Origin: Octopus vulgaris
Taxonomy: Eukaryota
Assembly: GCA_951406725.2 (NCBI GenBank)
Contig: OX597830.1
Coordinates: 36,580,001-36,644,000, forward strand
Length of the DNA: 64,000 nt
Reading direction: 5' to 3'
This document shows positions 8,950 to 64,000 of this stretch, piece after piece; position 1 is the stretch's first letter; the number at the start of each line of letters is the position of its first letter. The notes under the pieces were generated by a model. It was given only the letters and a program-made list of their open reading frames with translations. It was not told the origin of the DNA and did no database searches. A program made the position numbers and the translations under genes.

Positions 8950-9649
8950 CATTGAGAATTGGATTAAGTTTGTTTATGTATAAATATTCATAGCAACAAA
9001 GCCTCTTCGATAATTCCAGGCTTGAAAACAAAATTATTTCCGCCTTTTATCTTTTTCTTCTTTGCTTCCGAAGTTACGAAGAAAACTTTGTTTTTTTTCG
9101 CACGAATATGGAACATTCAGATTTCCGTAATTCTGGACAAATCCTTCTGCCGTTCCATTAAAATAAAGTTATCAGTGATATATACTGAAGAGGCGATTTA
9201 GTTGATCTAAATCTCGTCTTTTCTTTAATCTGTTCGTTTTGTACCGAATCCAACGAAAACAAGACAAATAAGTGGAAAGTTAATGTTTACATCTTAACTG
9301 GCGCTGTATTGTGTCTACGAAACTACGATGCTCGGATTCGTTCGAACACAGGTTTTAATAATTTCTTTTCATTCATTTTTCGTTTATAACCCTTGACACA
9401 GCGTAGGCATGGAACTCATTTTAATCTGAAATCCATTTTGTTTCGAAAATCCTCGGCCTTTTGCCGAAATCCTTAATGCACAACTTATGCCGCGTCAAAA
9501 AATCTATAAAATATTCGGGTTCCACATAAATTTGAAACATATTCTTTTATAATCCTATACGACTTATGTATTCACTCCAGCATGGCCGGAACCTATTAAC
9601 AAAAGTAATATATTTGAAAAGATTGTTATTACTATCTTAATTTTACAAG
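8950..9649 (+). promoter_or_regulatory. CpG-retaining unique region, probable promoter/5' region
   Basis: Visibly higher CpG density than the flanks, free of repeats, and immediately upstream of the long ORF. Confidence 0.4.
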
Positions 9650-12600
9650 ATGCCATCTGTTAAAAGTGATCATGGTCAGCTAGCCATTCAAGTGGTTAGA
9701 GAATCTCGTGGTAAAACTTCTCATGGTAATCAAAAGACTTCAAAAAGTGCGCCTCAGGCACAAACCTGCAAAAAGAATCCAAAAGCGAAAGGACATTCAC
9801 ATAAGGATACGGAACGATATTTGTTCCTGAGCAATGATAATGGACGTAACTTAGACCTTAGTTCAGTGTCATCCCTTTCTACAAAATCAGCTTTTGCAAG
9901 ACTTGGTACTCAGTCAGTTGTAACACAGGTTGGCAGAAGTTTAACCAAAGTTCCAGGTACACTGACCAGTAAGTTTTCGTGTCATTCTCTGTGTAATGGT
10001 ATGAGGAAGCAAGTTGTTGTTGAAAAGCACAGTCCTCACAGAAAAACAGCTTCGAAACTGACTACGCCGTCTTTCCCAAAGCCTGCTGATCTTGGTAGTT
10101 TGGAGAATTTCTCTGTGTTCAAAGAAAACATCCGTTCAGATAACAATCCAGAAATATCTGTACCATCAGTGCAACACAAACAACCTAAAATAATTACCGT
10201 TATTACAAAAGAGCCTGAAAGTTTCGAGCTACAATTGCAACATAATTTTGAAGAGGAAATGGTTCCTGCTTTGAATTCGGATCAGCTTGATAACCAGTTA
10301 ACTGAAGAAGTGGAACCTGAATGTTGTTATAATAAAGAAAAGGAAAACACCGTTGATCCTCCAAACCAAATTCCTGAAAAAGTAATTGCAAATGCGTTAG
10401 ATTTAGAAGTAATTAATTCGGATTTACCAAATGATATTTCTGCCAGTAAAACATCCCCTGTTGAAGAGAAAGCAGCTGTAGAGCAATTGGAAGATAAATC
10501 AGTTGGAGAAGATGAAATTCCTGCTGTCAGACAGAAAGAAAGCACAAATCCAGATAAGGAACCAGAGCAGGAAGATTGCTGTCCTTGTCGTGGAACTGCT
10601 TCGATGCAAAAAACACTCAGCACCGTTGCCGCGGCCACTGCCGCTGCGTTTTCAGCTCATCCTTTATTGGCGTCGCATAACAGATTAGAGGCTCAGTTGA
10701 TGACTCTATTGGATAAGATGAATTCTTTAGAACAGCAGATATTTCTACAGAAACATGAAATGGAGAAGGAAGGAAAGCTCCAGAAGCTGGAGAGTCAACT
10801 TAGCCAAGTGACAAAGGATCGAATGAATTCTTTAGAACTTTTGCAAAAGCAGATGTTTGGTATGCAAACCAACTTTCTAAATGTCGCAAAAAGTTTTGAG
10901 AAAATGTTTGGTCATGTTCCTGACAATGTTCAACAAAAAATTGAAGAGAATGAAGAGAATATGGAACCATTACATTACAGATCTAAAAATGTGCAACATT
11001 CAAAAAATGATATTGAAATGTCTAAAGAATCTGATTCTTTAGAATCACTAGATTTTTCTATTACTACAGATAAAGATGTAAGAAGTTTCCCTAAACCCCT
11101 TTTTGTAGCTCCTGAAGATAAACGTGCTAAAAATCCAAAAAAGGAACATCATATTGAGAAGTCATCATCAAAAAGTGCATTGAGAGGTAATTCTAAAGAT
11201 ACATCTGCTCCTTCCATAAAACCCAAAGTAAATTCAAATAATCCTCTCAGCACAACCCGCAAGGCATCAAATGTAAAGACAAACATTGTGAATGGCAAGG
11301 AAAGCAAATCTACTTCTAAACCAAACAAAACTGTGAGTTCGGTGAATTCCACATCCAAATTCCAGAATTCTAGACCCAATAGAAACAAGAAATATCAATC
11401 AAATGTAGACGAAGAAAAACTTGTTATTAAAGAAATCAACAAATATATACAGAAACCAACATCTGTAACTGAGAAACAATCTGCTAAAGAGCTCCCTTTG
11501 AAATACTCTTATCTAAAAACTTTTACCTCTAATCCTTATTCTAAGGAACCGTATGCAGTCCGAGAAACTTCCAAAGCTAAACGCATTCCTAAGAAACAGT
11601 CTGTTCCTGCACCAGCAATTCTGAACACTAGTTATGTTATTTCTTCTTCTCCCGATTTACAGCACGATGAAAAGGAGTTTAATAAAATTCAAAATCGAAA
11701 CGGTAATTCTAAGAAATGGTCTACTTCTTCACAGTCAGCAGCTCCTCTTGAGAAATATCTTCTAGACTCGCCTCTGAAGACTCAACTTTTCACATCAGAT
11801 AAAATTTATGCCGACCTAAAACCAACTGCTCCTTCAGCTGAACTTGTTGCTGGGCAAGAAATTCTTCAACGTGCTCAGACTAGTCGGATGTTTCTGGAAG
11901 AAAACTTAAAGAATTTAGAACGAGATTACAAGAAGGATGCTGTTTATAATATTGTGGATAATCTTTATCAAAGCAGCCCAGTATCTCAAACTTACCAAAT
12001 GAAACGAAAAGTTGACCAATGTATTGCCAAAATGCAGATAGATATTCAGAAAGAACTCTCAATGGAAGAAGCTACTTCCAATAAACTTTCTTGCTCAAAT
12101 CCTGCCACCAAAGTGAATAAATTAGGGAAGAAAAAAGACTCTGAAGATTTAAGTGGTTCCAGACAGAAACAGCCAAAAGTTATTGTTAAAACAAAAGAAA
12201 AAGCCCCTCAAAGTTCAAATAAAAACCTAAATGTCTTGTACCAAGACCAAGAATATCTTACGCAAGTATTTGGTAAAGCTACTTACCAAAATAAAAGAAC
12301 TACTGTTCGGGAGCCTTACTTACACATCAGAAATAAACCACAGACAAAAGTAACTCAACCAAAAGCTATGGTGGATGTTAAAGGAATACAAAAAAAATCT
12401 ACCAAAGTTCAAACAGTGGAAGAAGTAAAGAAAACTGTTGAAAAAGGTACTGGAATCGTGGCTGATGACAAAAAATATTTCTTTGCTAGCAAACCTAGCA
12501 ATAATCCTAACTATTTACAGAATTCAAGTTTGGTACCAGGCCATTTAGGTTATATGGCTGTATCCTTAAGAGAGCCTAGAATGGACTCTGGGTTAACTCA

Positions 12601-15600
12601 TGCTGTTACAGTTAGGCCTGGTAGTTCTGTAGTTGTTGCTCCGCAGGACCAGCCTAAAGTTGTTTCTGCAGAAAATGTTGTCCTCTGTACTGTTCCTTTT
12701 GTAAATGAAGCAAAACCTGCAAAGAAAAAAACTGTATTGAGTAAGCAGGACTTACCATCTGTTGATATTGTTGGGAAACTGACCAAAGACAAGGTTGTAA
12801 AGAATGTGAATTTTACTATGGACAGTCAAGATAAAAATGTTCTGAATACATCTTTTGAGAAATTGGTTACGATTGCTGGAAGCACTGATAATGAAGAGGA
12901 AATACCCTGTGAGAGTTTAAGTGAATGTTCTGATATTGTTGAAGCAGAAAATGATGTTGAGGTAATTGTTGTCAAGTCTAAAACCAAAGAAACTCGTGAA
13001 TCATTAGCTGATAATAATAACAACAATCGGGTGTTGCCACAACCGTTAGAAGTATTAACTGGCTTAACATCAGAACTAATGTTAACTAAAAACCATAAAA
13101 TAGCGGCTACGTTAGCGACATCTCAAAGAATGCCTATTGATGCTGAATCAATTCAACAAGAAGAAGATTTAAATGAAATTATTCAATTAGTGGAACAAGA
13201 AATTTTGTCACAGATAATCTCCAGCGACCAAGTAACTGCTAATTCTGCAGTTGATTATTTGAAGAAGAATTTTTCAGCAGAAAATAAAGGTGACAAAGGA
13301 TGTATCCCTAAAGTAAAAGCTTCAGTCTCTGAGGATTCTTTGATAATGTCTGAACTAATTGAGGAAATTCTTGCTGATAAAGTTGGCACAATCTTAGCAA
13401 ATGACTATGCTTTAAACGTATCGACTTCACACAAATCTCCAAAACCAGCTTCGCCTAATCAATTTGAAAAAGGTGAAATTTGTCAAACAAAACCAAACGA
13501 ATCTTCCTCATTGAAACATGATGCAGTTTGTCAAACAAGTTTATTATTAAATGAGTTAGTTTTGAAAGACAAAAATTCACATTTTACTGATAAAACGCCC
13601 GAAAGTGCAGTTATTTCTCAGCCTCTGCAGCCTACTTCTGTCGAAGAATCAGTTCCTGTAGACACTGCCATTCCTCAGGAGTCTGAAACCATGATAAATC
13701 AAGATGGTAGCAACTCATTAATAAATGAAGCTGCAAGCTATTCCGCTAATGAAATCAATTCATTAAATTTAAACAAAAATTCTGTAGAACAAGAAACTAC
13801 AACTGGTGGAAATCCAGATGAAGTTCCAATGAAAATTTATTGTCCAAATTTTGCCAAAGATTCTAAGAAAGACGCAGCAAAAGACTTAACTGAAAATATA
13901 GTGCAGCCTATTAACACATCTGTAATAACCCGCTCTGATGATGGTGCGGTGCAAAATACAAATGCAGTCTCAGTGCAAAGTTCGAAAAGTCCCGTACAAC
14001 CGTTCAGTAGTTTTGTAATGCAAACATCAACAAGTAAAGTACAAGACACTAAAGCACCTGCAATGCAGCGCTGTATAAGTGTCGTGGCACAAGATGCTGT
14101 GAACGTTTTGGGTAGTGATACAAGACGGCAGTCTGAAGCAGAACGTGTTGAAGAGGTACAGAGGAGAAGAAGGGAAGCAACTCTTGCTAAATTGCGGATT
14201 GACAAAATGGAATCCATCTATATTCCGCCAGACACTCGTGTCCGGTCTCCTGTTAGACACGTTAGATTGGTCGAAATAACTTCGAAATCTTTGAACGAAA
14301 CAAACACCGAAGAGAAAGACCAATTTATAACGCCATCATTACCGTCACAATTTCCTCCATCGCAATCACCACCGCAATTTCTACCATCACAGTCATCACC
14401 ATCATCTCCACCACCAGAACCACCACCACCACCACAACAACAGCCAGCATCACAATCACTACTGCAACCTCTGAAACCTCACAAAACAACATCAACAACA
14501 TCACAAACAACAGCGTCATTGCAATTTTCATCTTCACACACAACGACCCCACCTCCGTCTTTTATTGCTCAGTTCCAAACTTCTGGGACAGGAAAAGGCC
14601 CCACCAGATCTCTCTTCTCACCTGAGGAATCTGATTCTTCTGAGAAAATAACTGGCGAACAAGTAAAAGAGCTTGGAGAAAATTTCACAATTGCTTCACT
14701 TGAAGGACTAAATTTGGCACCTAAATTTGATGCTGACAATGACAACGATGTAGAAGAAACTCTTGGAACAGACAATGAAGTTGCAACTGATTCTTCACCT
14801 TTATCTGACAAGGTGAGCAGTGAGTCACTGTCACCAGGGAGCAGCAGTAGCAATACTGCACTTGAGAGTCTCTCTGATGGCCAGTGGCTGCTGAGTCAGA
14901 GCGAAGGGCAAGCAGCACTATATACGGTCAATGATGGTGTCTACAAACGTATTCTTGCCGATGTCAGCAACCCCAGCACATTGAAGGACTCAAACGAGTT
15001 AACTCGCGAAGACACGGCTGATATCACTTACAGTGATGGAGAATTTGTTCTCCAGCAGCGAGTTCCACCTGAGAAAGATCCACTCTTACAACTCATTTTG
15101 AATATGAGGCAGACCACTTTGAATCCACCTCACATTCCTGAAATGATCCCAGGCAACACTGATGCTGATGCAGGGGGTCAAAGAAGTCCTGGAGAATGGG
15201 TATTGTCCAGTTCAGAAATTGGTCAAGCCACTTTCGAGACATCTTCTGATTATGTTGCAGCAGCCTCAACAAACGTGAAGCCTGATAATTCCAATAAAAT
15301 GGCTAAAACAGTTTTACCTCAGCAATCTTCTTCTTCTAGACAATCGCATATATATTCTAGTGATAAAAACAAAACAAATTCTCGAGTGATCTTTGTTGGG
15401 TTGACCCCTGATGAAGATGCAACAGCTACAAAATCAGAATTAGGATTGGAAATACAACAGGACCAAACTCCTGTGGTACAAAATTTGTTGCAGAATGGGT
15501 TTTTTCAACCAAAAGCCCCTATCACAACTGTTGGTCACCCGTTGCCCTCACAACAGAGTTTTATGCAACCCACTGACCTGATGGGGTCCAAATCTGTTCG

Positions 15601-15853
15601 TTTCAGCCAATACACAGGAATTGATCCCGTTGTTTCTGACAATGCTTCATATAGTGAAAGCCAGCATGTTGATGCTTCTGTAGAGTCAGATGTCCATAAT
15701 ACTCTACTTGGTGATGGCGATGGCATAAAAGACGCTCAGAGTCTGCCACGACCTCCACTTATACCTCATAGAATACCGGTAACGATACCGAGTCCAGGGG
15801 AAATCTGGGATGATGAAGACATAGAAGAAATATCATTTCAGGATGGAATATGA
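9650..15853 (+). CDS. KIAA0586: TALPID3 / KIAA0586 homologue (centriolar ciliogenesis protein), 2067 aa, no introns in the CDS
   Basis: Conserved TALPID3 blocks: TVAAATAAA..PLL..(H/Q)..LEA followed by a coiled coil (~10622-10870); QEILQRAQTSRMFLEENL (~11854-11907; vertebrate VLRQV...KVLEENL); YLTQVFGKATYQNKRTTVREPYL (~12253-12322; vertebrate [20 protein letters not shown]); C-terminal S(L/Y)S(D/E)G(Q/E) repeats. In-frame TAA just upstream of the ATG; AATAAA at ~16126. Confidence 0.88.
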   Translation: MPSVKSDHGQLAIQVVRESRGKTSHGNQKTSKSAPQAQTCKKNPKAKGHSHKDTERYLFLSNDNGRNLDLSSVSSLSTKSAFARLGTQSVVTQVGRSLTKVPGTLTSKFSCHSLCNGMRKQVVVEKHSPHRKTASKLTTPSFPKPADLGSLENFSVFKENIRSDNNPEISVPSVQHKQPKIITVITKEPESFELQLQHNFEEEMVPALNSDQLDNQLTEEVEPECCYNKEKENTVDPPNQIPEKVIANALDLEVINSDLPNDISASKTSPVEEKAAVEQLEDKSVGEDEIPAVRQKESTNPDKEPEQEDCCPCRGTASMQKTLSTVAAATAAAFSAHPLLASHNRLEAQLMTLLDKMNSLEQQIFLQKHEMEKEGKLQKLESQLSQVTKDRMNSLELLQKQMFGMQTNFLNVAKSFEKMFGHVPDNVQQKIEENEENMEPLHYRSKNVQHSKNDIEMSKESDSLESLDFSITTDKDVRSFPKPLFVAPEDKRAKNPKKEHHIEKSSSKSALRGNSKDTSAPSIKPKVNSNNPLSTTRKASNVKTNIVNGKESKSTSKPNKTVSSVNSTSKFQNSRPNRNKKYQSNVDEEKLVIKEINKYIQKPTSVTEKQSAKELPLKYSYLKTFTSNPYSKEPYAVRETSKAKRIPKKQSVPAPAILNTSYVISSSPDLQHDEKEFNKIQNRNGNSKKWSTSSQSAAPLEKYLLDSPLKTQLFTSDKIYADLKPTAPSAELVAGQEILQRAQTSRMFLEENLKNLERDYKKDAVYNIVDNLYQSSPVSQTYQMKRKVDQCIAKMQIDIQKELSMEEATSNKLSCSNPATKVNKLGKKKDSEDLSGSRQKQPKVIVKTKEKAPQSSNKNLNVLYQDQEYLTQVFGKATYQNKRTTVREPYLHIRNKPQTKVTQPKAMVDVKGIQKKSTKVQTVEEVKKTVEKGTGIVADDKKYFFASKPSNNPNYLQNSSLVPGHLGYMAVSLREPRMDSGLTHAVTVRPGSSVVVAPQDQPKVVSAENVVLCTVPFVNEAKPAKKKTVLSKQDLPSVDIVGKLTKDKVVKNVNFTMDSQDKNVLNTSFEKLVTIAGSTDNEEEIPCESLSECSDIVEAENDVEVIVVKSKTKETRESLADNNNNNRVLPQPLEVLTGLTSELMLTKNHKIAATLATSQRMPIDAESIQQEEDLNEIIQLVEQEILSQIISSDQVTANSAVDYLKKNFSAENKGDKGCIPKVKASVSEDSLIMSELIEEILADKVGTILANDYALNVSTSHKSPKPASPNQFEKGEICQTKPNESSSLKHDAVCQTSLLLNELVLKDKNSHFTDKTPESAVISQPLQPTSVEESVPVDTAIPQESETMINQDGSNSLINEAASYSANEINSLNLNKNSVEQETTTGGNPDEVPMKIYCPNFAKDSKKDAAKDLTENIVQPINTSVITRSDDGAVQNTNAVSVQSSKSPVQPFSSFVMQTSTSKVQDTKAPAMQRCISVVAQDAVNVLGSDTRRQSEAERVEEVQRRRREATLAKLRIDKMESIYIPPDTRVRSPVRHVRLVEITSKSLNETNTEEKDQFITPSLPSQFPPSQSPPQFLPSQSSPSSPPPEPPPPPQQQPASQSLLQPLKPHKTTSTTSQTTASLQFSSSHTTTPPPSFIAQFQTSGTGKGPTRSLFSPEESDSSEKITGEQVKELGENFTIASLEGLNLAPKFDADNDNDVEETLGTDNEVATDSSPLSDKVSSESLSPGSSSSNTALESLSDGQWLLSQSEGQAALYTVNDGVYKRILADVSNPSTLKDSNELTREDTADITYSDGEFVLQQRVPPEKDPLLQLILNMRQTTLNPPHIPEMIPGNTDADAGGQRSPGEWVLSSSEIGQATFETSSDYVAAASTNVKPDNSNKMAKTVLPQQSSSSRQSHIYSSDKNKTNSRVIFVGLTPDEDATATKSELGLEIQQDQTPVVQNLLQNGFFQPKAPITTVGHPLPSQQSFMQPTDLMGSKSVRFSQYTGIDPVVSDNASYSESQHVDASVESDVHNTLLGDGDGIKDAQSLPRPPLIPHRIPVTIPSPGEIWDDEDIEEISFQDGI

Positions 15854-22434: not shown

Positions 22435-22741
22435 GAGGTACATTCTATCTGAATCCTTATTTTACTATATATATATATATATATATAGTAAAATAAGGAT
22501 TCAGATAGAATAGGGTACTTGAAAAGATATGCACCAGGTAGGGTTGGATAAACCTGTGATTCTGGTTTATGGTTGGTAAGTATTAAATAGGATATTCTGG
22601 TTGTGTACTCAGAAAAAAAACCCAATCCTATGAGTATTTAGCACTTAGGGGCTAGTCCAAAGCATGCATTACATTGAATTGTACATTATTGGTATACTCT
22701 AGGGTGTCTGTCAAGTCATCAATCCCCTTGGCATATTATCA

Positions 22742-23928: not shown

Positions 23929-24014
23929 ATTTACATCACTCTATGTTATTGTATTTAGCCATTCCTGACGTCCTACGCGTTGATGAGCCAAAATGATATT
24001 ATTGAATGCTTATA

Positions 24015-24473
24015 ACTAATCTCTCTCTCTCTATCTCTCCCATCCCTCCCCTCTCTCTCTCAATCTTCCCCCTCTCTCCCTCTTCTGCACTTCCCTCAGG
24101 TTGGGCAACCATATATTTTCTTTGCAGTAGCACACCTGTTTCTGTCTTCATTCCTGGTCTTTCTCTCTCCGGCCAGGTAATCTTGTACTTCCTCTTCAGC
24201 AAGACACCTATATCTGTCTCATCATCATCTCCCCAAACGCCTCCTTCCCTCTTAAAAGTTTTTGCATGTACTTGGTGATTCCAATGTTAGATTAAGTAGG
24301 GTGTCAGCCAAACTGGTTGCATTTGCCAGGGTGACCCTGTCAATACAGGTGCCACTTAAAAGCACCCAGTCCACACTGTAAAGTGGTTGGTGTTCGGAAG
24401 AGCATCCAATTGTAAAAACCTTGCCAAAACTGACCTCGCCTGTGCTTGTGCCACATAAAAAGCAGTAAGTCTA

Positions 24474-24475
<2 letters not shown>
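24015..24475 (+). repeat. Truncated copy of the retroposon at 25757-26427
   Basis: Near-identical ~450-bp block (CT-rich head, TTTGCAGTAGCACACCTG...GCCACATAAAAAGCA). Confidence 0.8.
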
Positions 24476-24504
<29 letters not shown>

Positions 24505-25028
24505 TCATCATTCAGACTCAAGACTTGGCCTAAATGCTTGCAAGTGTGGATATCTTAACGTTACGTTCTGAGTTCAAATTCCGCCGAGGTCGACTTTGCC
24601 TTTCATCCTTTTGGAGTCGATAAATTAAGTACCAGTTACGCACTGTAATCAACTTAATCCGTTTGTCTGTCCTTGTTTGTCCCTTGTGTTTAGCCCCTTG
24701 TGGGTAGTAAAGAAAATAGATTACTCAAAGTTATTTCCCTTAAGTATGAGTTACCTCCCCTGAAATTGAAAAATCTTCAAGTAATCTTTTCTTTTCAGGC
24801 CTACATCTGTAACAGCCTCGTATATCCCGTTTGGTGATTGTCACATCAAAAGTTTATTTATAACTACGAAACATAGACACAGGCGTATAGTAAGAAGTTT
24901 GCAAACCTCATGGTTCTGGGTTCAGTCCCACTGAGTGGCACCTTGGGTATTTGTTATCAACTATGGCTCTGGGCCGACCAAAACCTTATGTACGGATTAA
25001 GTAGACGGAAACTGAACAAAGCACGTCG

Positions 25029-25073
<45 letters not shown>

Positions 25074-25756
25074 CTCACCTGGGGCACATTTTTTTATAGG
25101 CACAGGAGTGACTATATGGTACATAGCTTGCTTACCAGCCACTGGTCCAGGGTTCAGTCCCACTGCATGACACCTTGGGCAAGTCTCTTCTACTATAGCC
25201 TTGTGCCGACCAAAGCCTTGTGAGTGGATTTGGTAGACGGAAACTGAAAGAACCCCATCGTTTATATGTATATATACATATATATGTGTGTGTGTATGTA
25301 TATGTTTGTGTGTCTTTGTTTGTCCCTCCACCATCGCTTAACAACTGATGTTGGTGTGTTTATGTCCCTATAACTTAGCGGTTTGGCAAAAGAGACTAAT
25401 ATAATAAGTACTAGGCTTACAAAGAATACGTCCTGGAGTCGATTTGTTTGACTAAAAGGCAGTGCTCCAGCATGGCTGCAGTCAAATGACTGAAACAAAT
25501 GAAAGAGCAAAAGAATATAAATGATAAATTTCCAAATTTTGGTTGGTAGGGATACAGAATCCAAATGGGTACCGTAGTCACATTTACCGGTTATTAATAC
25601 TGGCTAACTCAATGTGTGCATAAAAAACTCCAGTTACTTTGATTTACTAACCTCAGTCTGTCTTCACATTGGTAAATCCATGTCTCTATAGAGACAGCAT
25701 GTTTTTGGTAGAGAAAATAAGGAATTTATAATAAAAGAGAAAAGGGATTTATTCCC

Positions 25757-26427
25757 ATCCTGTGGTCTCCCACACTCTCTCTCTCCCTCTCCCTCCCTCT
25801 CCCTCTCTCTCCCTCTCTCTTCCCCCATCTTTCCTCCTCTCTCCCTCTCTCTTCTGCACTTCTCTCAGGTTGGGCAACTATATAATATATTTTCTTTGCA
25901 GTAGCACACCTGTTTCTGTCTTCATTCCTGGTCTTTCTCTCTCCGGCCAGGTAGTCTTGTACTTCCTCTTCAGCAAGACACCTATATCTGTCTCACTATA
26001 ACCTTTCATCATCTCCTCCCTCAACGCCTTCTTCCCTCCTAAAAGTTTTTGCATGTACTTGGTGATTCCAATGTTAGATTAAGTAGGGTGTCAGCCAAAC
26101 TGGTTGCATTCGTCCAGGGTGACCCTGTCAATACAGGTGCCACTTAAAAGCACCCAGTCCGCACTGTAAAGTGGTTGGTGTTCGGAAGAGCACCCAGTTG
26201 TAAAAACCTTGCCAAAACTGACTTCGCCTGTGCTTGTGCCACATAAAAAGCACTAAGTCTACTCTGCTGACTGGTTGTTGTCAGGAAGGGCATCCAGCTA
26301 TAAGAATCCTGCCATAACAATCACAGAAGTCTGGTGAAAGCTTTGGCCTGGCTTGCTCTTGTGGTACAGCCCCACTCATGCTAGCATGGAACATGGGTAT
26401 TAAATGATGATGATGATGATGATGATC
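25757..26427 (+). mobile_element. (GAT)n-tailed retroposon inserted into the left arm of a fold-back palindrome
   Basis: Ends GGAAGGGCATCCAGC...TAGCATGGAA...(GAT)n. The flanks 25720-25756 and 26428 onward join into the reverse complement of 26745-26800. Confidence 0.65.
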
Positions 26428-26764
26428 AAGTTTTATTCAGCAGTAAATTATTTCTTTGCATTTCTGCACCTACACTTGTTTCTGAAGCAACTGATGTATA
26501 CAGCAAAATGTGCATCTTTATGAGCATTTATTGTTAATTGCTGTGTTTTCAGGGTGGAGTCAACTGTACTGTTCCAATAGAATCTAAATTAAATTTTTTT
26601 AATTTAGATTCTATCTCAACAATGCAGTTGACTCTACCCTCTCTGAAGAAGAGGCAACTAACAATAAGTGCACATAAAGATGCAAATTTTGTTGTGTATA
26701 TCAGTTGCTGCAGAAACGTGTAGGTGCAGAAATGAAAAGAAGAAATTATCTACTGACTTAAACT
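26428..26764. repeat. ~335-bp imperfect palindrome made of two divergent hammerhead-like units
   Basis: The arms pair to a centre at ~26595 (ATAGAATCTAAATTA / TAATTTAGATTCTAT). Hammerhead-like motifs at 26467-26556(-) and 26636-26726(+). Confidence 0.8.
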
Positions 26765-26990
26765 GGATATAAATCTCTATTCTCCTTTATTATAAATTCA
26801 TCATATATATATAATTAAAGTTTAGATTTGAAATTCAAAATTTAGCATCCAAACTGTATTTTGGGTAAGTCCCTCATATCATTCCTCACACATTAGGGAG
26901 CAGTGCAGAATTATACTGAAATGATCGTTGTGATAAATAAAGTTTCCAGAATACTGTTTTCCATTTCAGTTATTTATTATATATAGGAGT

Positions 26991-27405
26991 GGCGTAGGAG
27001 TGGCTGTGTGGTAAATAGCTTGTTTACCAACCACATGGTTCCGGGTTCAGTCCCACTGCGTGGCACCTTGAGCAAGTGTCTTCTACTATAGCCTCGGGCC
27101 GACCAAAGCCTTGTGAGTGGATTTAGTAGACGGAAACTGAAAGAAGCCCGTCGTATATATGTATATATATATATATATATATGTGTGCGTATTTGTTTGT
27201 GGGTCTGTATTTGTCCCCCCTACATCACTTGACAACCGATGCTGGCGTGTTTACGTCACCGTAACTTAGCGGTTTGGCAAAAGAGACCGATAGATAAAGT
27301 ACTAGGCTTACAAAGAATAAGTCCTGGGGTCGATTTGCTCAACTAAAGGCAGTGCTCCAGCATGGCCACAGTCAAATGACTGAAACAAGTAAAAGAGTAA
27401 AAGAG
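26991..27405 (+). mobile_element. SINE family A, full length
   Basis: Same as the 4896 copy. Further copies at ~25105-25515, 27825-28143, 31270-31670 and 33997-34550. Confidence 0.85.
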
Positions 27406-27623
27406 TATATATATATATAATTCTAAATAGAGGTTAAAATAACCACCTTAAGGGATAGAAAACATCCAATGACTTACTGGTTTGTTACCTATTATTTTGT
27501 TGTGAATAGTAATATTCCTAAAATAATAAGTTTAAATATAAATCCTGGTTTATAAATATTCAAATTAAAATCCAGAAAATGGAGAAGTAGTGTTAATATG
27601 ATTTATCAACTGCAAAAATTCAG

Positions 27624-27717
27624 CATGTTTGCTTACAGCTGTTTCGATTTTGCCCCAAAGAATTGAATTCCAGTAATTAAAACAGTTTATTGGGCAAAAT
27701 CTCGTAAGAGGAGTATG
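27624..27717 (-). ncRNA. Degenerate type-I hammerhead ribozyme motif (Penelope-like)
   Basis: Minus strand: CTTACGA (one change from CTGACGA), perfect 10-bp stem II GATTTTGCCC/GGGCAAAATC, then GAA-ACAGCTGT-A (palindromic stem III). Confidence 0.55.
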
Positions 27718-28150
27718 AAAGACATATCGTTAGGTTATTAAAATTCTTTCAAAATATCTCAACAGACTGAATCGCATTTAATTACTAATATTGGTATAAA
27801 CCTTGGATTTTAATTTTCACTGTGTGACACCTTGGGCAAGTGTCTTCTACTATAGCCTCGGGCCGACCAAAGCTGAAAGAAGCCCGTCGTATATTTGTAT
27901 ATATATATATGTATGTGTGTGTGTTTGTGTGTCTGTGTTTGTCCCCGTAGCATTGCTTGACAACCAATGCTGGTGTGTTTATGTCCCCGTCACTTAGCGG
28001 TTCGGCAAATGAGACCGTTAGAATAAGTACTGGGCTTACAAAGAATAAGTCCCGGGATCGAGTTGCTTGATTAAAGGCGGTGCTCTAGCATGGCCGCAGT
28101 CAAATGACTGAAACGACTAAAAGAGTAAAAGAGTAAAAGAGTAATATAAC

Positions 28151-28454
28151 AATAAAATGTTTTGAATGGTACAACAATGAACTATAATACAAACAATGGG
28201 CTATACACCTGTTGAAATTTAGTCATCCATAGTGTGATATGATATTTCAGAATAAAATTCCTTCTTCAGATATTCTTAGATGAAGTTGCTGCTATAATCG
28301 GTTTTGTGATTATAACAGTAACTCCATCTAAGAATATCTGAAGAAGGAATTTTATACCAAAATATATCACACTATGGATGACTAAATTACAACAGTTATA
28401 ATAGTCCATTGTCTTTATTATAGTGCATTGTTGTACCATTCAAAACTTTTTATT
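28151..28454. repeat. ~300-bp imperfect palindrome with hammerhead-like motifs in both arms
   Basis: The arms pair around the loop at ~28299-28307. The minus arm 28237-28273 reads ATAT-CTGAAGA-AGGAATTTTATTCT-GAAATATC-ATAT; the plus arm has CTGAAGA at 28338 with GAAA decayed to AAAA. Confidence 0.8.
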
Positions 28455-29464
28455 CTTTACAAACAATACACAATGCTTCAAGCGAACTACAATACTCTCC
28501 TATATATCTATGTGTGTATAAACAAATTTCTAAATTGAATTTTTCCTTGTAAGTTTGGATTTTATTCCCTCAAATAATAATTATTATATGTATGTATATG
28601 TGTGTGTGTGTGTGTCTTTTCGTCTTGACATCATGTGATACTTGTAAAATGTCAATGTCAACCTAGTATTCTGTGAGGGAACATGTTTGGCCATGGGGAA
28701 ATATTGGCTCACTTGCAAACAAGTGAGGATTGGTGATAGGAAAGGTAATTTGGCTGATGAAAATCTGCCTCAAACTCTGTCTGACCCATTCAAAGCATGG
28801 GAAAGAGGATGTTAAAATGGTGGGCGTTTGTTGTTGTTGATGATAATACTGCTGCTGCTAATGGTGGTAGTGGTAGTGGTGGTGGCAGCGGCGATGGCAA
28901 TGGTGGTGTTGGTGTTGGTGGTGATGATGATGTTGATGGAGATATGTTTACCATGAGAAAAGCGAAAAATGAAAGAGGGAGACGAATGGAGAGATCTTTC
29001 CTGTTGCTGTCACAGATTTTGAAGTTTTAGAATCAAGTGCAAATTTTCATATTTGGTATATTGATGCGGTTATTTGCTCTGAATCTGAAAATTGTGATTC
29101 ATTTCAGGAAAATTTTAGAGAAATGTTACAAAGGTTGAAAGTGTGACCATTTTTACTCAATCAGAAAATAGGATTTGTACATGACAGCTGTGATAAATGT
29201 TAGAAGACAAAAGTTTTAAACAAAATGAAAGCTACGTGTGAGAGATAATACATTCACAGAGAGAGAGAGAGAGAGAGGTAAATAATAGAGGGAGATAGAT
29301 AGATGGCGACAGAGATTAAGAGATTTGTAGATCTGAATGTTGAGTTATTTCTCATCGCAAATTAATATTTTTCTTTTATTATTTATGGACAACATTCTCT
29401 TTGGGATGCAGATTTCGAAAATGAAATTTATTTTCCTTGAGGATGCACCGTTTCAGAGCCTTTC

Positions 29465-30510
29465 AGGCCAGAAATTTGGGGGTGGAGTTAGTTGATTGTA
29501 TTGTTTCCAGTTCTTGATTGCTACTTTATTTTTATCAGGCCCAGGAAAATAAAAAAGTTGACTCGATCTCAGTGGTGCTTGAACTCAGAACATGAAGAAC
29601 TGAAACAAATGCTGCAAGGCATTTTATCTGGTGCTCAAACAATTCTACCAACCCACCAGCATTAAATATTAAATACATGTGAAACTAATTAGTAAACAGC
29701 AATTATGGTGAGATGCAAATATAAGAATGGTTAATTATTGACTTTGAATTTTTAGCACAAAGGCTGAAATCACAGGGAAGCAGGACAGCTGATTACATTG
29801 AGCCCAGCATGTCACTGGTACTTAATCTATTGACCCTGAAAAGACAAAAGGCAAAATTGAATATATGTTATGCTAATGATTCTGGCAGCTCAGTGCATTA
29901 ATAATAATAATGAAAGTATTAATATTGATTTCAGATTTTGACACAAAGCCAGCAATTTCAGAGGAGAGAATATAAGTCGATTGCATCAACCCCAGTAGTC
30001 AACTGGTACTTATTTTATTGACTCCCAAAAGGATGAAAAGTAAAGTTGACATTGGTGGAATTTGGTGCCTCAAGAATAATTAAAATAGTATTAATATGTG
30101 GGTAGGCTGATTGATCCCATTGCTTAACTGGTACTTAGTCTATTGACCCCAAAAGGGTGAAAGGCAAAGTTGACCTTGGCAGAATTTGAACTCAGATCAT
30201 GTAAACACGGATGAAATATTGCTAAGCATTTTGCCCATATTGCAAATAATTCTGCCAGCTTGGCGCCTTAATAATGGTAATGATGGTATTAATATTCCTT
30301 TCCACTGTAGGCACAATGCCTGAAATTTTTGGGGAAGAGGTAGGTCGATTACATTGACCCCAGTACTCAACTGGTACTTATACTATCGACCCTGAAAGGA
30401 TGAAAGTTTAAGCGAACCTTGGTGGAATTTGAACTCAGAATATAAAGACAGATGAAATGCTGCTAAGCATTTTGCCTGGCATGCTAACGATTCTGCCAGC
30501 TTCCTGCCTT
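29465..30510 (-). mobile_element. Cluster of about five diverged SINE family B copies
   Basis: Repeated CTGGTACTT..TATTGACCCC..AAAGGATGAAAGGCAAAGTTGACC blocks. Confidence 0.7.
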
Positions 30511-31963
30511 AGAGTGATTAATTATTGATAATTAAACTATTTAATGTTAAATAGTTAAAGTGTATTAATTTGTAAAATATTTATAGATGTCGTATAGATA
30601 CTGTAGAAATTCTATCATCATTGCCATTGTTTTAACATCTGCTTTTCCATACTTGAATGAGTTGGGTGAAATTTATTGAGACATATTTCCAGTGGCCAGA
30701 TGCCCTTCCTGTCACCAACCCTTGAATGTTTTGGCAGAACATTGGAAATGAAGGATACTGCTTGTATGATAACGACAATCATTTACAACTGTCACATGAT
30801 GTCAAGCCAAGGGGACATAATCATACACACGCACACACACATGCAGATGGAAGCTGAAAGAATCCCATGTTTGTGTGTGTGTGTGTGTGTGTGTGATTGT
30901 GTCCCCTTGGATTGATATCATGTGACAGTTGTAAATGACTATCATTATCATATAAGCAATGTCATTCATTTCCAGTATGTACACACACTCTCACACATAG
31001 GGCTTCTTTCAGTTTCCATCTACCAAATCCACTCGTAAGGTGTTGGTCAGCCCAAGACTCTTGTAGAAGATACTTGCTCAAAGTGCCACACAGTGAGACT
31101 GAACCTGAAACCATGTGATTGGAAAGCAACTTTCTTAACCACACAATCACACCAGCACTTATAAATATTGAATATTTGTTTATTGATCAGAAGCATTCTA
31201 GATGTGACTCTCCTGCCATTTTATACATCAGAAACTACTTTGTGGAATATATCCTTAACCTAAAATGCCACTGCGTGACACCTTGGGCAAGTGTCTTCTA
31301 CTATAGCCTTGGGCCAACCAAAGCCTTGTGAGTGGATTTGGTAGACGGAAACTGAAAGAAGCCCGTCGTGTATGTATATATATATATATATATATGTATG
31401 TATATGTTTGTGTATCTGTGTTTGTCCCCCCCAACATCGCTTGACAACCGATGCTGGTGTGTTTAAGTCTCTGTAACTTAGCGGTTCGGCAAAAGAGACT
31501 GATAGAATATGTACTAGACTTACAAAGAATAAGTCCTGGGGTCGATTTGGTCGACTAAAGGTGGTGCTCCAGCATGTTCACAGTTAAAGTCCTGGGGTCG
31601 ATTTGGTCGACTAAAGGTGGTGCTCCAGCATGTTCACAGTTAAATGACAAACAGATAAAAGAATAAAAAGGATAGATGTGTGCTTTGAGGGAGATTTGGT
31701 TGCTATATTCAGCAGTCGATTGACCACGTATAAGTTCTTTTGTTAGTTTGGCTTGCTGTGTGGAGTTACGTGCACATAGTAAGGCTTTTATATTTTTGGT
31801 GTTATATAGTGCAGTCATAGCTGTGTGGTAAGAAGCTTGCTTCTCAATCACATGGTTCTGGGTTCAATCCAACTGTGTGGCACCTTGGGCAAATGTCTTC
31901 TACTATAGCCTCAGGTCAACAAAGCCTTATGATTGGATTTGGTAGATGGAAACTGAAAGAAGC

Positions 31964-50921: not shown

Positions 50922-52056
50922 TTGTTCACCAAAGAACACTTTGTAGAATTGGTGGTCCATTTACTTGGCCATTGCCAATCAAAGGACAATGCCTCTGCTA
51001 TATTCAGGCTGTTGAAAAAAATTCTCAATGCTAAATTCAACAAAGAACTGAGCGAGATTTACTTGAACCTAATCGACCACTTTTGGGAGAACATTTTCAC
51101 AAAATTCAAAGGATGTTCCTCTGATGCTGAATGTAATTCAGAGTTTTTGAAGCTATGGAAATCATTGTTCAAAAAGCATAGTTTCATTTCTGATGTAAAA
51201 CTGCAAACATGTGACACTGCTCGGACATTTTTGGAACATATTGATTCTATTATTGCCAAACTTGGTAACAATTCTGCCAGTGAAAAATGGGTTTTGAAAA
51301 GTACATTACAGCTCTTTAATAGAGCATTATCTTATAAAGAGGAACTAGCTGTACAGAAGCATATTCCGCATTTCTACTGGGTTACTTGTCAGCATTTATT
51401 GGCAGCCAACATTTTCAAAGACTGTCTCCACAGAATAGCAAACAGTAGCAGACATGCTGGTTTTGGAGGTTCAGAAGATGTAATTATTTTTCAACAAATT
51501 AATTCTGATATCCATGGAGATATTGCTCCCAGGTTCTGCACCCCCAGTGAGAATATTAACAAAGACACTTCTCACAAATGTAATGTCAATGATGATATCA
51601 CAGCAGATATCTCTGATAAAGATGGTATCTCTAGTGAAGTCATAAGCAGTACAGCCGAACCTGTTATCACGAATGATATCAATGTGGGTGGTACTTGTGA
51701 TATGTCTGGTGTCTCTTGCAACAATATTAGTGTCAAAGCTGATGGTGAGGGTAACATCTCCTATACTATGAACGTAGACACTGCAGAGGTCAGAGTGGAA
51801 TTTGAAGCCTCGGAACAAAACACCACGACTGATAACAGACATGAAATAATTGTTGGTCCAAACACTATGGAGATAGACCAAGACACCTCACTTAATGGCA
51901 AAGATACCACATCTACTGGTCAAGACACCTCTGCAATCAGCAGTGACACAATAGCTTCCACATTACCCAATCTATCGCTGTTACGTAAGCTGATACTGCT
52001 ACAGGTCAACACATATGTGATTGCTGTGAAATATTATGATGAAGTCTGTGAACAAG
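50922..52056 (+). CDS. LINS1: Lines homologue, coding exon 3 (378 codons plus 1 nt)
   Basis: Polypyrimidine tract plus TAG acceptor at 50921 (phase 0), donor G|GTAGGT at 52057. HAGFGG resembles human HSFFGG; LSLLRKLILL resembles HVILRAASLV. No downstream LINES exons recognised in the window. Confidence 0.75.
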
Positions 52057-53515
52057 GTAGGTTTATTCGTCATTTTCCTTTTACTTGGTTCAGTCATTGG
52101 ACTGTGGCCATGCTGGGGCACCATCTTGAAGGGTTTTAATCAAATTGACTCCAGTACTTAGATGTTTCTTTTTAAAACCTGGTACTTATTTTATTGTGGA
52201 GGTGTGTGGCTTAGTGTTTAGAGTGTCAGCATCATGATCGCAAGATTGTGGTTTCGATTCCTGGACCAAGTGATGTGTTGTGTTCTTGAGCAAAACACTT
52301 CATTTCACGTTGCTCCAGTCCGCTCAGCTGGCAAAAATGAGTAACGCTGCGATGGACTGGCGTCTCGTCCAGCTGAGAACACATACGCCATAGAAACTGG
52401 GCCCATAGGCCTGGCTAGGCTTTAAAAGGGCACATTTATTTATATACTTATTTTATTGGTATCTTTTTTGCCAAACTGCTAAGGTATAGGGACATAAACA
52501 AACCAACACAGGTTGTCAAGTGGTGGTGGGGGACAAGCATAAACACACACACACACACGCATGTACACACATGTATACACACATATACACACACATACAC
52601 ACAAATATACTCACATACACACATACATACTACAGGCTTCAACACAGTTTCCGTCTACCAAATCCACTCACAAGGCATTGAGCAGCCTGGATCTATAGTA
52701 AAAAAATGCTTGCCCAAGGTGTGGAACCAAACCCAAAACCATGTGGTACTAAAGCAAGCTTCTTAACCATAGAGCTATGCCCAAGACTACAATCAAAATA
52801 ATTTTATTTTCACAAAAACCTGGTCTAATTTTGTTAAAGCCATTGTTTCTACTGCAACCCAACATTTTACATATTTCTTTGACTTCATCTCTTCTCTGCT
52901 ATTTCAATTGTTTTGACTATTTTTTTTTTTCTAATATCACTTGATATCATTATTTAGCATTTTGTACCCCTGCCCTTCTTACTTCTGTTCCATATCTTCT
53001 TATTTTTGTATCAAGAAGAGTTGTTAAATCAGTAAATTCTTCTACATTTGGTCCTATTAAATCAATATCACTGGCAAAACAAAGATTACTGACTTCTCTA
53101 CTCCTTATTTTATCATTTCCTTCACAAGACTTAAAGGTTTAGTGAAAAAAAACCCCAAAAAAACCCCAAAGAAACCCACGTCTGCCAACTGTTGTTTTAA
53201 CCCTTAACCGTGAAATTAAATTTCATGGTTATTCCAATAATGATGTTAAATATCTACCCAAAAAGTATAATTGGTATTTTCTGCAAGCCACATTACATTA
53301 TAATTACCTTGACGTATCTCAACAGAAAATATTTTCAAACATTGACATGCCTCGACGAAAAATAGATTGGGATATAAAACTGCTTTATGCACTTGAGGAT
53401 AATGAAAGTTTGAGTGAATGGGTATATGGGATTCCCACGGTAAAATGATTCATTCGGTTAATTTGATGAATCTCCAGTCAAAACCAGGTATGTTTCAAGT
53501 TCAGATAATGGCTAT

Positions 53516-56727: not shown

Positions 56728-56833
56728 ATAGGTAAATTGATAATAACAGATAATAACAGAATTAATAATATAGGTGATTTTTTGGGCCTGCAATCACCTA
56801 TATTATTAATTCTGTTATTATCAATTTACTTAT
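56728..56833. repeat. ~105-bp AT-rich hairpin
   Basis: TAATAACAGAATTAATAATATAGGTGATT-loop-AATCACCTATATTATTAATTCTGTTATTA. Confidence 0.8.
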
Positions 56834-63083: not shown

Positions 63084-63178
63084 ACAGGACACTGATGAGG
63101 TGAAATACATGATTGCATAATATCTCTATTTGTTATGTAATTATTTCAGCATTTTGCTGAAACATGTGTCTGTCCTGT
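63084..63178 (+). ncRNA. Type-I hammerhead ribozyme with extended stem II
   Basis: Stem I ACAGGACA (63084-91) / TGTCCTGT (63171-78), a perfect 8 bp; core CTGATGA (63092-98); stem II GGTGAAAT/ATTTTGCT plus inner TGATTGCATAA/TTATGTAATTA; GAAA (63159-62); quasi-palindromic stem III ACATGTGT; GTC cleavage triplet (63168-70). Confidence 0.75.
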
Positions 63179-63248
63179 AAAGATTTGAATATCACAACTG
63201 TTTTCTGCTTATTTTAATATTTTTCAATATATGCATATATATATATAT

Positions 63249-63402
63249 ATAATTTACATGATAAGGGCAAAAGAAAAATTCTAATGCCAAATATGCCGAA
63301 ACAAAAACTGTCAATAACCATAAATTATAATGGTTATTGACAATTTTTGTTTCGGCATATTTGGCATTAGAATTTTTCTTTTGCCCTTATCTTGTAAATT
63401 AT
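63249..63402. repeat. ~150-bp near-perfect palindrome
   Basis: Arms of about 72 bp with very few mismatches around an 8-nt loop (63322-63329). Confidence 0.9.
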
Positions 63403-64000
63403 TTATAAATTTAACCTTTAAAGGTATTTTTTGATATGCTGGCCATTGATGAAATTTTTTTCCCGAAAAAATTTTATCCTACATTAATTATATATATATA
63501 TATATATTTATATATGATGGGGATCTATTGATCTTTAAAAGATCCAGATTAAATCTTTCCCTATGCACAAAATATCGAGCTCTCTTATTCTTAGCAATAT
63601 GCCATAGGATGATTGGAAGTGGTAAATACTCAAGTTGTGGGCAATGTAGAGAGTGGATGTAATACCAGTAGTAATTGGTGTGCTTGGAAGTATCAGCACC
63701 CAACTACCAGCAGGGCTCAAAACGATTGGTACAAATGTAAAGATAAATCATTGCTTGGAACTGCAAGAGTTCACCTTAGTCTGTTGGCTCTGGACAGCTG
63801 ACTCTTACCACCATATCCAGCAACATAAACTGAGAGTTTTCATCACATAATGATAGTAAATAGTTTCAGTGATCATGATAAAATATGATGTATCAGATTC
63901 TAAATGACTTTTTCTAAGAAATAGTCTGTCAAAACAAAAAAAAAAAAAACAAACAAAAAAAACCATTTAGAAACTGATACATCTCATTTTGTCATCATCA

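What the first reader, a model, noticed from the sequence alone, without database searches (positions are those of the whole stretch)
26428..26764. Fold-back palindrome built from two back-to-back hammerhead units
Seen: each arm carries a hammerhead-like unit pointing outwards. The minus arm reads CACC-CTGAAAA-long stem II-GAAACAAGTGTA-GGTG; the plus arm reads CTGAAGA-GGCAACT...AGTTGCT-GAAACGTGTA-GGTG. There is no ORF. Established: Penelope pLTRs can occur in inverted orientation. Inference: this is an ORF-less, double-ribozyme fold-back element, with one ribozyme on each strand so either transcript could self-cleave. It may be an undescribed class of non-autonomous Penelope derivative in cephalopods.
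Basis: partly seen in the sequence, partly recalled or inferred. Interest (0 to 1): 0.7.

Follow-up and report, generated by a model that had tools for sequence, protein, structure and literature searches.

The report
Head-to-head Penelope retroelement stump, decayed hammerheads
The mirror-image sequence is real, but it is two broken-off end pieces of a Penelope-type jumping gene joined head to head, an arrangement already described, and both of its self-cutting-RNA (hammerhead) motifs are mutated and predicted to be inactive.

Summary
The palindrome is real (arms 79% alike, z -25) and not an assembly error. It is not a stand-alone ORF-less element. Both arms are 5'-truncated 3' ends of a dispersed repeat that, in longer copies, continues upstream into a reverse transcriptase and GIY-YIG-type endonuclease of the Hydra clade of Penelope-like elements (PLEs). 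Most copies are single arms; head-to-head pairs have variable centres and, in 25 of 26 classifiable cases, one short and one 'tailed' end, the published PLE layout. In the window the left arm continues to 25524 behind a later 667-bp insert. The family majority is a type I hammerhead with a 63-68-nt stem II, but the left copy has lost G8 and the right carries a 4-nt insertion and a 2-nt deletion; the fold-back also out-competes either ribozyme by 64-70 kcal/mol. Mild extras: long stem II, a ~195-nt tail, coincident 5' breakpoints of paired arms. This scan already reported the same layout and long-stem hammerheads on other DNA of this and other genomes. Ordinary; low interest.

The parts
25524..25757 (-). 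Outer part of the long arm: pLTR 3' end plus ~195-nt tail, ending at the family's long end
   Evidence: 92% to family majority positions 1202-1438; inverted match to 26764-26804 (I6)
25758..26424 (+). Later insertion of an unrelated repeat with (GAT)n tail that splits the long arm; about 5 nt of the arm duplicated (edges approximate)
   Evidence: second copy at 24020-24478, 90%; arm positions 1202-1206 occur on both sides
26425..26594 (-). Inner part of the long arm, 5'-truncated at family position 1032
   Evidence: 87% to majority, 148/170
26467..26556 (-). Decayed type I hammerhead, G8 replaced by A (CUGAAAA), stem III no longer palindromic, 63 nt between A9 and G12
   Evidence: sequence, alignment to majority; fails descriptor
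26595..26597 (.). Head-to-head junction, 3 filler T
   Evidence: crossed by contigs of three other runs
26598..26804 (+). Short arm, family positions 1033-1242, ending at the family's short end next to (TA)n
   Evidence: 92% to majority, 186/203
26635..26726 (+). Decayed type I hammerhead: core letters intact, 4-nt insertion between stem I and core, 2-nt deletion in stem III
   Evidence: its own MFE pairs the core instead of opening it; fails descriptor

Best explanation
The palindrome is one old insertion of a Hydra-clade Penelope-like retroelement: two 5'-truncated copies of its 3' end joined head to head, likely made when the element's enzyme nicked both strands of a TA-rich target and copied the RNA from its two start sites, and its two hammerhead motifs are predicted to be dead. 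Shown: family membership, coding parent, two fixed 3' ends, variable centres, damage in both motifs. Inferred: (1) the GIY-YIG endonuclease nicks both strands of AT-rich DNA; (2) the reverse transcriptase starts once at the long end (position ~1438) and once at the short end (~1242); (3) both cDNAs stop early, often at nearly the same point, likely the 5' end of one shared RNA template, here 1032/1033; (4) repair joins the two cDNA ends with a few filler bases; (5) later a second repeat inserted into the long arm and both arms decayed neutrally. Confidence about 0.93 for the identity, about 0.6 for steps 1-4.
For: Other copies run on upstream of the palindrome centre for >1 kb. In L131 the same arm lies collinear behind RT (GGGLYRDDALL), the W-F-P linker motif, C..ATINRLCP-type linker and YYIG..ET..KRI..H..CKLC endonuclease; a profile of 72 Hydra-type proteins matches L131 in order over positions 167-689 of 709, best piece E 3e-30. 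A sister open frame (L121, tblastn to L131 E 1e-64) folds at pLDDT 80 and its top PDB matches are telomerase RTs. CxCX5C in L070, TA-rich flanks and hammerhead fit the Hydra definition. 22 head-to-head junctions in the first set, 19 classifiable, all one short plus one long end; 8 of 19 have breakpoints within 15 nt, 1.85 expected by permutation; new stretches add 6 more short+long pairs and one unclear pair. Paired arms share non-majority letters at 0.042 per site against 0.010 between sites (0.024 without the one divergent-subfamily pair). Inverted truncated copy with a one-sided tail is the published layout; the tail lies between two RT start sites and the anole enzyme cuts and extends both strands in vitro.
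Against: No full-length copy of this exact family was found; its 5' end, RWK and DKT motifs were not seen. Pfam names neither RT nor GIY-YIG in any of these proteins and the endonuclease fold was not searched apart. The tail is ~195 nt, not 30-40 nt as published, and no ORF start was evident in it. Breakpoint coincidence weakened in later sets (2 of 6 new pairs within 15 nt) and all samples come from similarity searches that score only 40 candidates each. No clean target-site duplication in the window. One pair (L184) ends near 1210 on both sides, both cut by other repeats.
Confidence: 0.85

Rival explanations
1. Same element, other route to the mirror: the first cDNA (or an antisense template) folds back and primes a copy of itself, and the endonuclease or RT end point trims the second arm at the short end.
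For: Near-equal breakpoints and shared private letters in paired arms fit equally; self-priming is the reading in PMC3846280 (passages).
Against: In at least 7 pairs the arms do not overlap at all (long arm starts at 1278-1384, short arm ends at 1242), which a fold-back copy cannot make; two-strand priming covers both classes.
Confidence: 0.3
2. One reading: a non-autonomous double-ribozyme palindrome that moves as a unit and self-cleaves from either strand.
For: 7 of 43 hammerhead-covering sites carry the motif on both strands.
Against: No other site seen has centre 1032/1033; centres range over hundreds of bases; the outer ends differ. Both motifs are damaged and buried in the fold-back.
Confidence: 0.03
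3. A foldback DNA transposon (MITE) with long terminal inverted repeats.
For: Long inverted repeat in TA-rich DNA.
Against: The two termini are different positions of one sequence (1242 and 1438), single arms dominate, and the arm is collinear with an RT.
Confidence: 0.01
4. The host has kept the hairpin as a functional double-stranded RNA (editing or small-RNA source).
For: Present in runs of three other organism labels; G-U over A-C 10 to 4 on the plus strand.
Against: 10 to 4 is not significant (p 0.18); arms differ at 28 of 167 sites, as expected from independent decay; a second repeat was tolerated inside the long arm.
Confidence: 0.04

Closest known systems
Hydra clade of C-terminal EN+ Penelope-like elements (Craig et al. 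2021, PMC8557442; seen: passages, section 11, supplement rows and part 2), including Hydra-1_Obim and Penelope-13_HM
   Same: RT then CxCX5C linker then C-terminal endonuclease with CxxC; (TA)n targets; type I hammerhead near the 3' end, often with an unpaired letter on each side of stem II; inverted 5'-truncated copy putting hammerheads on both strands (Penelope-13_HM).
   Different: Stem II plus loop is 63-68 nt here against 10-24 nt in the 26 Hydra rows of File S2; tail ~195 nt against 30-40; not Hydra-1_Obim itself (different hammerhead row; four family motifs absent from the supplement text).
PLE insertion unit with inverted pLTR and one-sided tail (PMC3846280, passages; PMC11167929, parts 1-2 of 4)
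   Same: Head-to-head inverted pLTR, palindromic junction, tail on one arm only, AT-rich target.
   Different: Longer tail; here no ORF is left in the insertion; coincident breakpoints were not found described in my searches.
PLE hammerheads of metazoans (PMC4209133, parts 1-2 of 4)
   Same: Short palindromic stem III (ACAUGU), extra letter after A9, dual motifs on opposite strands 100-700 bp apart read as truncated PLEs.
   Different: Much longer stem II; A.A or C.A next to the core instead of G10.1-C11.1 directly.
Non-LTR retrozymes (bioRxiv 10.64898/2026.07.22.740005, part 1 of 5)
   Same: Non-coding, type I hammerhead, PLE-related.
   Different: Retrozymes are head-to-tail tandem units; this is head-to-head and a plain truncation of a coding element.

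Membership tests
Hydra-clade PLE | PLE-type RT upstream of a C-terminal endonuclease, collinear with the repeat | tested here: met
   L131; sister frame folds like telomerase RT
Hydra-clade PLE | CxCX5C linker | tested here: met
   CDCATNRLC in L070, variants in L066, L068, L074; first C changed in L131
Hydra-clade PLE | GIY-YIG endonuclease with CxxC, no CCHH | tested here: inconclusive
   YYIG..ET..KRI..H and CKLC in L131 and profile match 590-689; no Pfam hit; fold of this domain not searched apart
Hydra-clade PLE | N-terminal RWK and DKT motifs | tested here: inconclusive
   No copy of this family reaches them; DKT present in sister L121
Hydra-clade PLE | Insertion into (TA)n | tested here: met
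   Flanks of 22 pairs mostly TA-rich microsatellite; window right flank TATATATATA
Hydra-clade PLE | Placement inside the Hydra clade on an RT tree | not tested
   No tree built; published reference proteins were not held as sequences
PLE insertion unit | Inverted 5'-truncated copy, tail on one end only | tested here: met
   25 of 26 classifiable pairs
Type I hammerhead (family majority) | CUGANGA, GAAA, UH and stems I-III | tested here: met
   Majority folds as a three-way junction, passes descriptor, 0 of 3000 shuffles do; whole-motif copies in L004, L013, L065
Type I hammerhead (window copies) | Intact core and stems | tested here: not met
   Left G8 to A; right 4-nt insertion and 2-nt deletion; no descriptor hit at the locus
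Type I hammerhead | Rfam hammerhead model match | tested here: not met
   None at E<=10 in window 24000-29500 or in six loci with whole motifs
Type I hammerhead | Self-cleavage | not testable with these tools
   Needs an assay; breakpoints near the cut site were inconclusive
MITE / foldback DNA transposon | Matching terminal inverted repeats with TSD | tested here: not met
   Unequal ends 1242 and 1438, no clean TSD
Non-LTR retrozyme | Head-to-tail tandem units each with a hammerhead | tested here: not met
   No tandem array at the locus; arrangement is head-to-head

The most novel reading that the evidence does not exclude
These fold-backs are a genomic record of how PLEs insert: one RNA is copied twice, from both nicked target strands and from two start sites ~195 nt apart, both copies running off the same 5' end; the pile-up of breakpoints about 40 nt upstream of the hammerhead (15 of 70 arms at 1020-1039, this insertion among them) marks the start of a short pLTR transcript; and the 53-68-nt stem II hammerheads of these families are active ribozymes that Rfam and short-spacer descriptors miss.
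Probability: 0.35. Interest if true: 0.5.

Novelty: new member of a known kind. Interest (0 to 1): 0.2.

Why it matters
As a locus it matters little: a dead retroelement stump. As a family it is a usable sample for an open question, how PLEs make inverted ends, because its two 3' ends are 195 nt apart and easy to score, and it adds to the evidence that cephalopod-type PLE hammerheads with very long stem II escape standard searches.

Tried and rejected
Rfam: only chance microRNA-type matches. RNAalifold on 33 copies gave 3 pairs and no covariation; core letters are kept at 0.90 against 0.87 in flanks and 13 of 47 copies keep all 11: no sign of selection on copies, as expected for dead insertions, so support for the fold rests on the majority sequence and on unrelated families with other stems. 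Pfam found nothing for the RT/endonuclease proteins; PDB by sequence found nothing; the search for longer relatives of the endonuclease piece found none. Search for the family's 5' end failed; the idea that the tail is the ORF start was not confirmed. The idea that arms start at the ribozyme cut site: a few do (L173, L042, L053) but starts spread over 1137-1192 and an exact junction pattern gave 0 matches; inconclusive. Expression: no RNA holder listed; the one guessed RNA run covers only the right edge; no inference drawn. Whether the locus is intronic was not established. Look-up of earlier findings by sequence was empty.

Full report
OBSERVATION. The region 26425-26768 is an inverted repeat, 79% over 350 nt, folding at -196.6 kcal/mol with z -25. 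Contigs from three other public runs cross its centre, so it is real DNA. The structure is larger than reported: an inverted match between 25717-25757 and 26764-26804 shows that the left arm continues beyond a 667-bp repeat with a (GAT)n tail that inserted later.

FAMILY. Aligned copies run on upstream of the centre for more than 1 kb and end downstream at one of two places: a short end followed by TA repeats, or a long end about 195 nt further. Upstream lies an endonuclease-type coding remnant. In L131 the arm is collinear with reverse transcriptase, linker and endonuclease remnants; a profile of 72 related proteins matches it in order over positions 167-689 of 709, and matches nothing in window 24000-29500. 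A sister family's 785-codon open frame gives a model at pLDDT 80 whose best PDB matches are telomerase reverse transcriptases. The CxCX5C linker, CxxC, TA targets and hammerhead fit the Hydra clade as defined in PMC8557442 section 11; that paper's supplement lists one octopus Hydra family, not this one. Against: no copy reaching the 5' end was found, Pfam is silent, no tree was built.

IS THE PALINDROME A UNIT? I mapped the 137 loci then held to a script-built majority reference: 95 sites, short AT-rich hits dropped. Of 43 sites covering the hammerhead, 36 have it once and 7 twice. Of 22 head-to-head junctions, 19 could be classed and all pair one short with one long end; centres vary (near-symmetric ones at 842/855, 1032/1033, 1041/1049, 1069/1055, 1087/1084, 1174/1185, 1179/1171, 1179/1179), and no other site seen shares the window's centre. 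In 18 new stretches plus L165, 7 junctions gave 4 short+long, 2 unclassed and 1 with both arms ending near 1210, cut by other repeats; 7 further new loci gave 2 short+long and 1 unclassed. Total 25 of 26. A sister family shows the same layout. This is the published PLE insertion unit: an inverted 5'-truncated copy with a tail at one end (PMC8557442 passages; PMC3846280 passages). Penelope-13_HM has hammerheads on both strands for this reason and opposite-strand pairs were noted in Schistosoma (PMC4209133). Unequal ends rule out terminal inverted repeats of a DNA transposon.

THE HAMMERHEADS. The family majority reads CACC-CUGAAGA-long stem II-GAAAC-AUGU-GUA-GGUG and folds as a three-way junction with a nested, paired stem II; 0 of 3000 shuffles pass my descriptor and three shuffled passes over 520 kb give none. 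Several unrelated families in the fetched loci have the same fold with other stems, 53-68 nt between A9 and G12 and palindromic stem III, against 10-24 nt in the 26 Hydra rows of File S2; one spike-moss PLE-X row there is also long. Rfam misses them. Against function in copies: no covariation among 33 copies, core hardly better kept than flanks. In the window the left motif has A at position 8 (G8 changes abolish cleavage in the anole element, PMC11167929) and the right motif has a 4-nt insertion before the core and a 2-nt deletion in stem III. Because the motifs point outwards, each is transcribed after its complement; forcing the core open costs 70 (plus) or 64 (minus) kcal/mol. Self-cleavage from either strand is therefore unlikely; untested.

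MECHANISM. In vitro, a Poseidon PLE protein cuts and extends both strands of AT-rich DNA and starts at two sites that bound the tail (PMC11167929, parts 1-2 of 4). By inference the short and long ends here are those two start sites. Paired arms often break at nearly the same point (8 of 19 within 15 nt, 1.85 by permutation; 2 of 6 in later sets) and share private letters, which suggests one RNA copied twice; pairs whose arms do not overlap argue against pure fold-back. Breakpoints pile up at 1020-1039 (15 of 70 arms starting between 800 and 1249, 3.1 expected if uniform); two of the 15 are the window's own and the first query began at this point, so bias is possible. A second cluster near the ribozyme cut site is diffuse. 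The window's arms are 87-92% alike to the majority and differ from each other as independent decay predicts.

NOVELTY. The arrangement is in print. The long stem II and ~195-nt tail were not found in my searches (open library only; bioRxiv supplements not seen, Repbase and Dfam not searchable, so the family may be catalogued). This scan already reported the same layout and long-stem hammerheads on other DNA (AI notes, used as leads only). Verdict: new member of a known kind, interest 0.2.

Noticed in passing
window 63084-63178 (+): Whole type I hammerhead motif of another family (CUGAUGA, 8-bp stem I, 60-nt stem II, GUC), followed by TA repeats and a 176-bp palindrome at 63238-63413.
   Followed up: partly
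window 28148-28457: Second, unrelated 310-bp palindrome (85%) with CTGAAGA in each arm; likely another PLE stump.
   Followed up: no
window 30743-30974, 22442-22511, 56749-56822: Further palindromes of non-simple sequence.
   Followed up: no
window 9641-15850 (+) and 50922-52136 (+): 2070-codon open frame with a TALPID3 match (PF15324, E 2e-25) and a 405-codon frame with only a weak Pfam hit; relation to the palindrome unknown.
   Followed up: partly
window 25758-26424 and 24020-24478: Repeat with pyrimidine-rich head, ~88-nt internal repeats and (GAT)n tail, two copies 1.8 kb apart, 90% alike.
   Followed up: no
L121:2155-4512; L122, L123, L127, L128: Younger sister Hydra-type family with an Asn-rich linker that lacks CxCX5C, a 53-58-nt stem II hammerhead with direct G-C closing pair, and a tail of about 110 nt.
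   Followed up: partly
L052, L097, L141, L151, L154, L163, L164: More sequence-unrelated hammerhead motifs with 53-68-nt stem II; only L097 was tied to an upstream endonuclease.
   Followed up: partly
P0003: An Argonauta protein named 'GATA zinc finger domain-containing protein 14-like' by its source aligns as a Hydra-type RT.
   Followed up: partly
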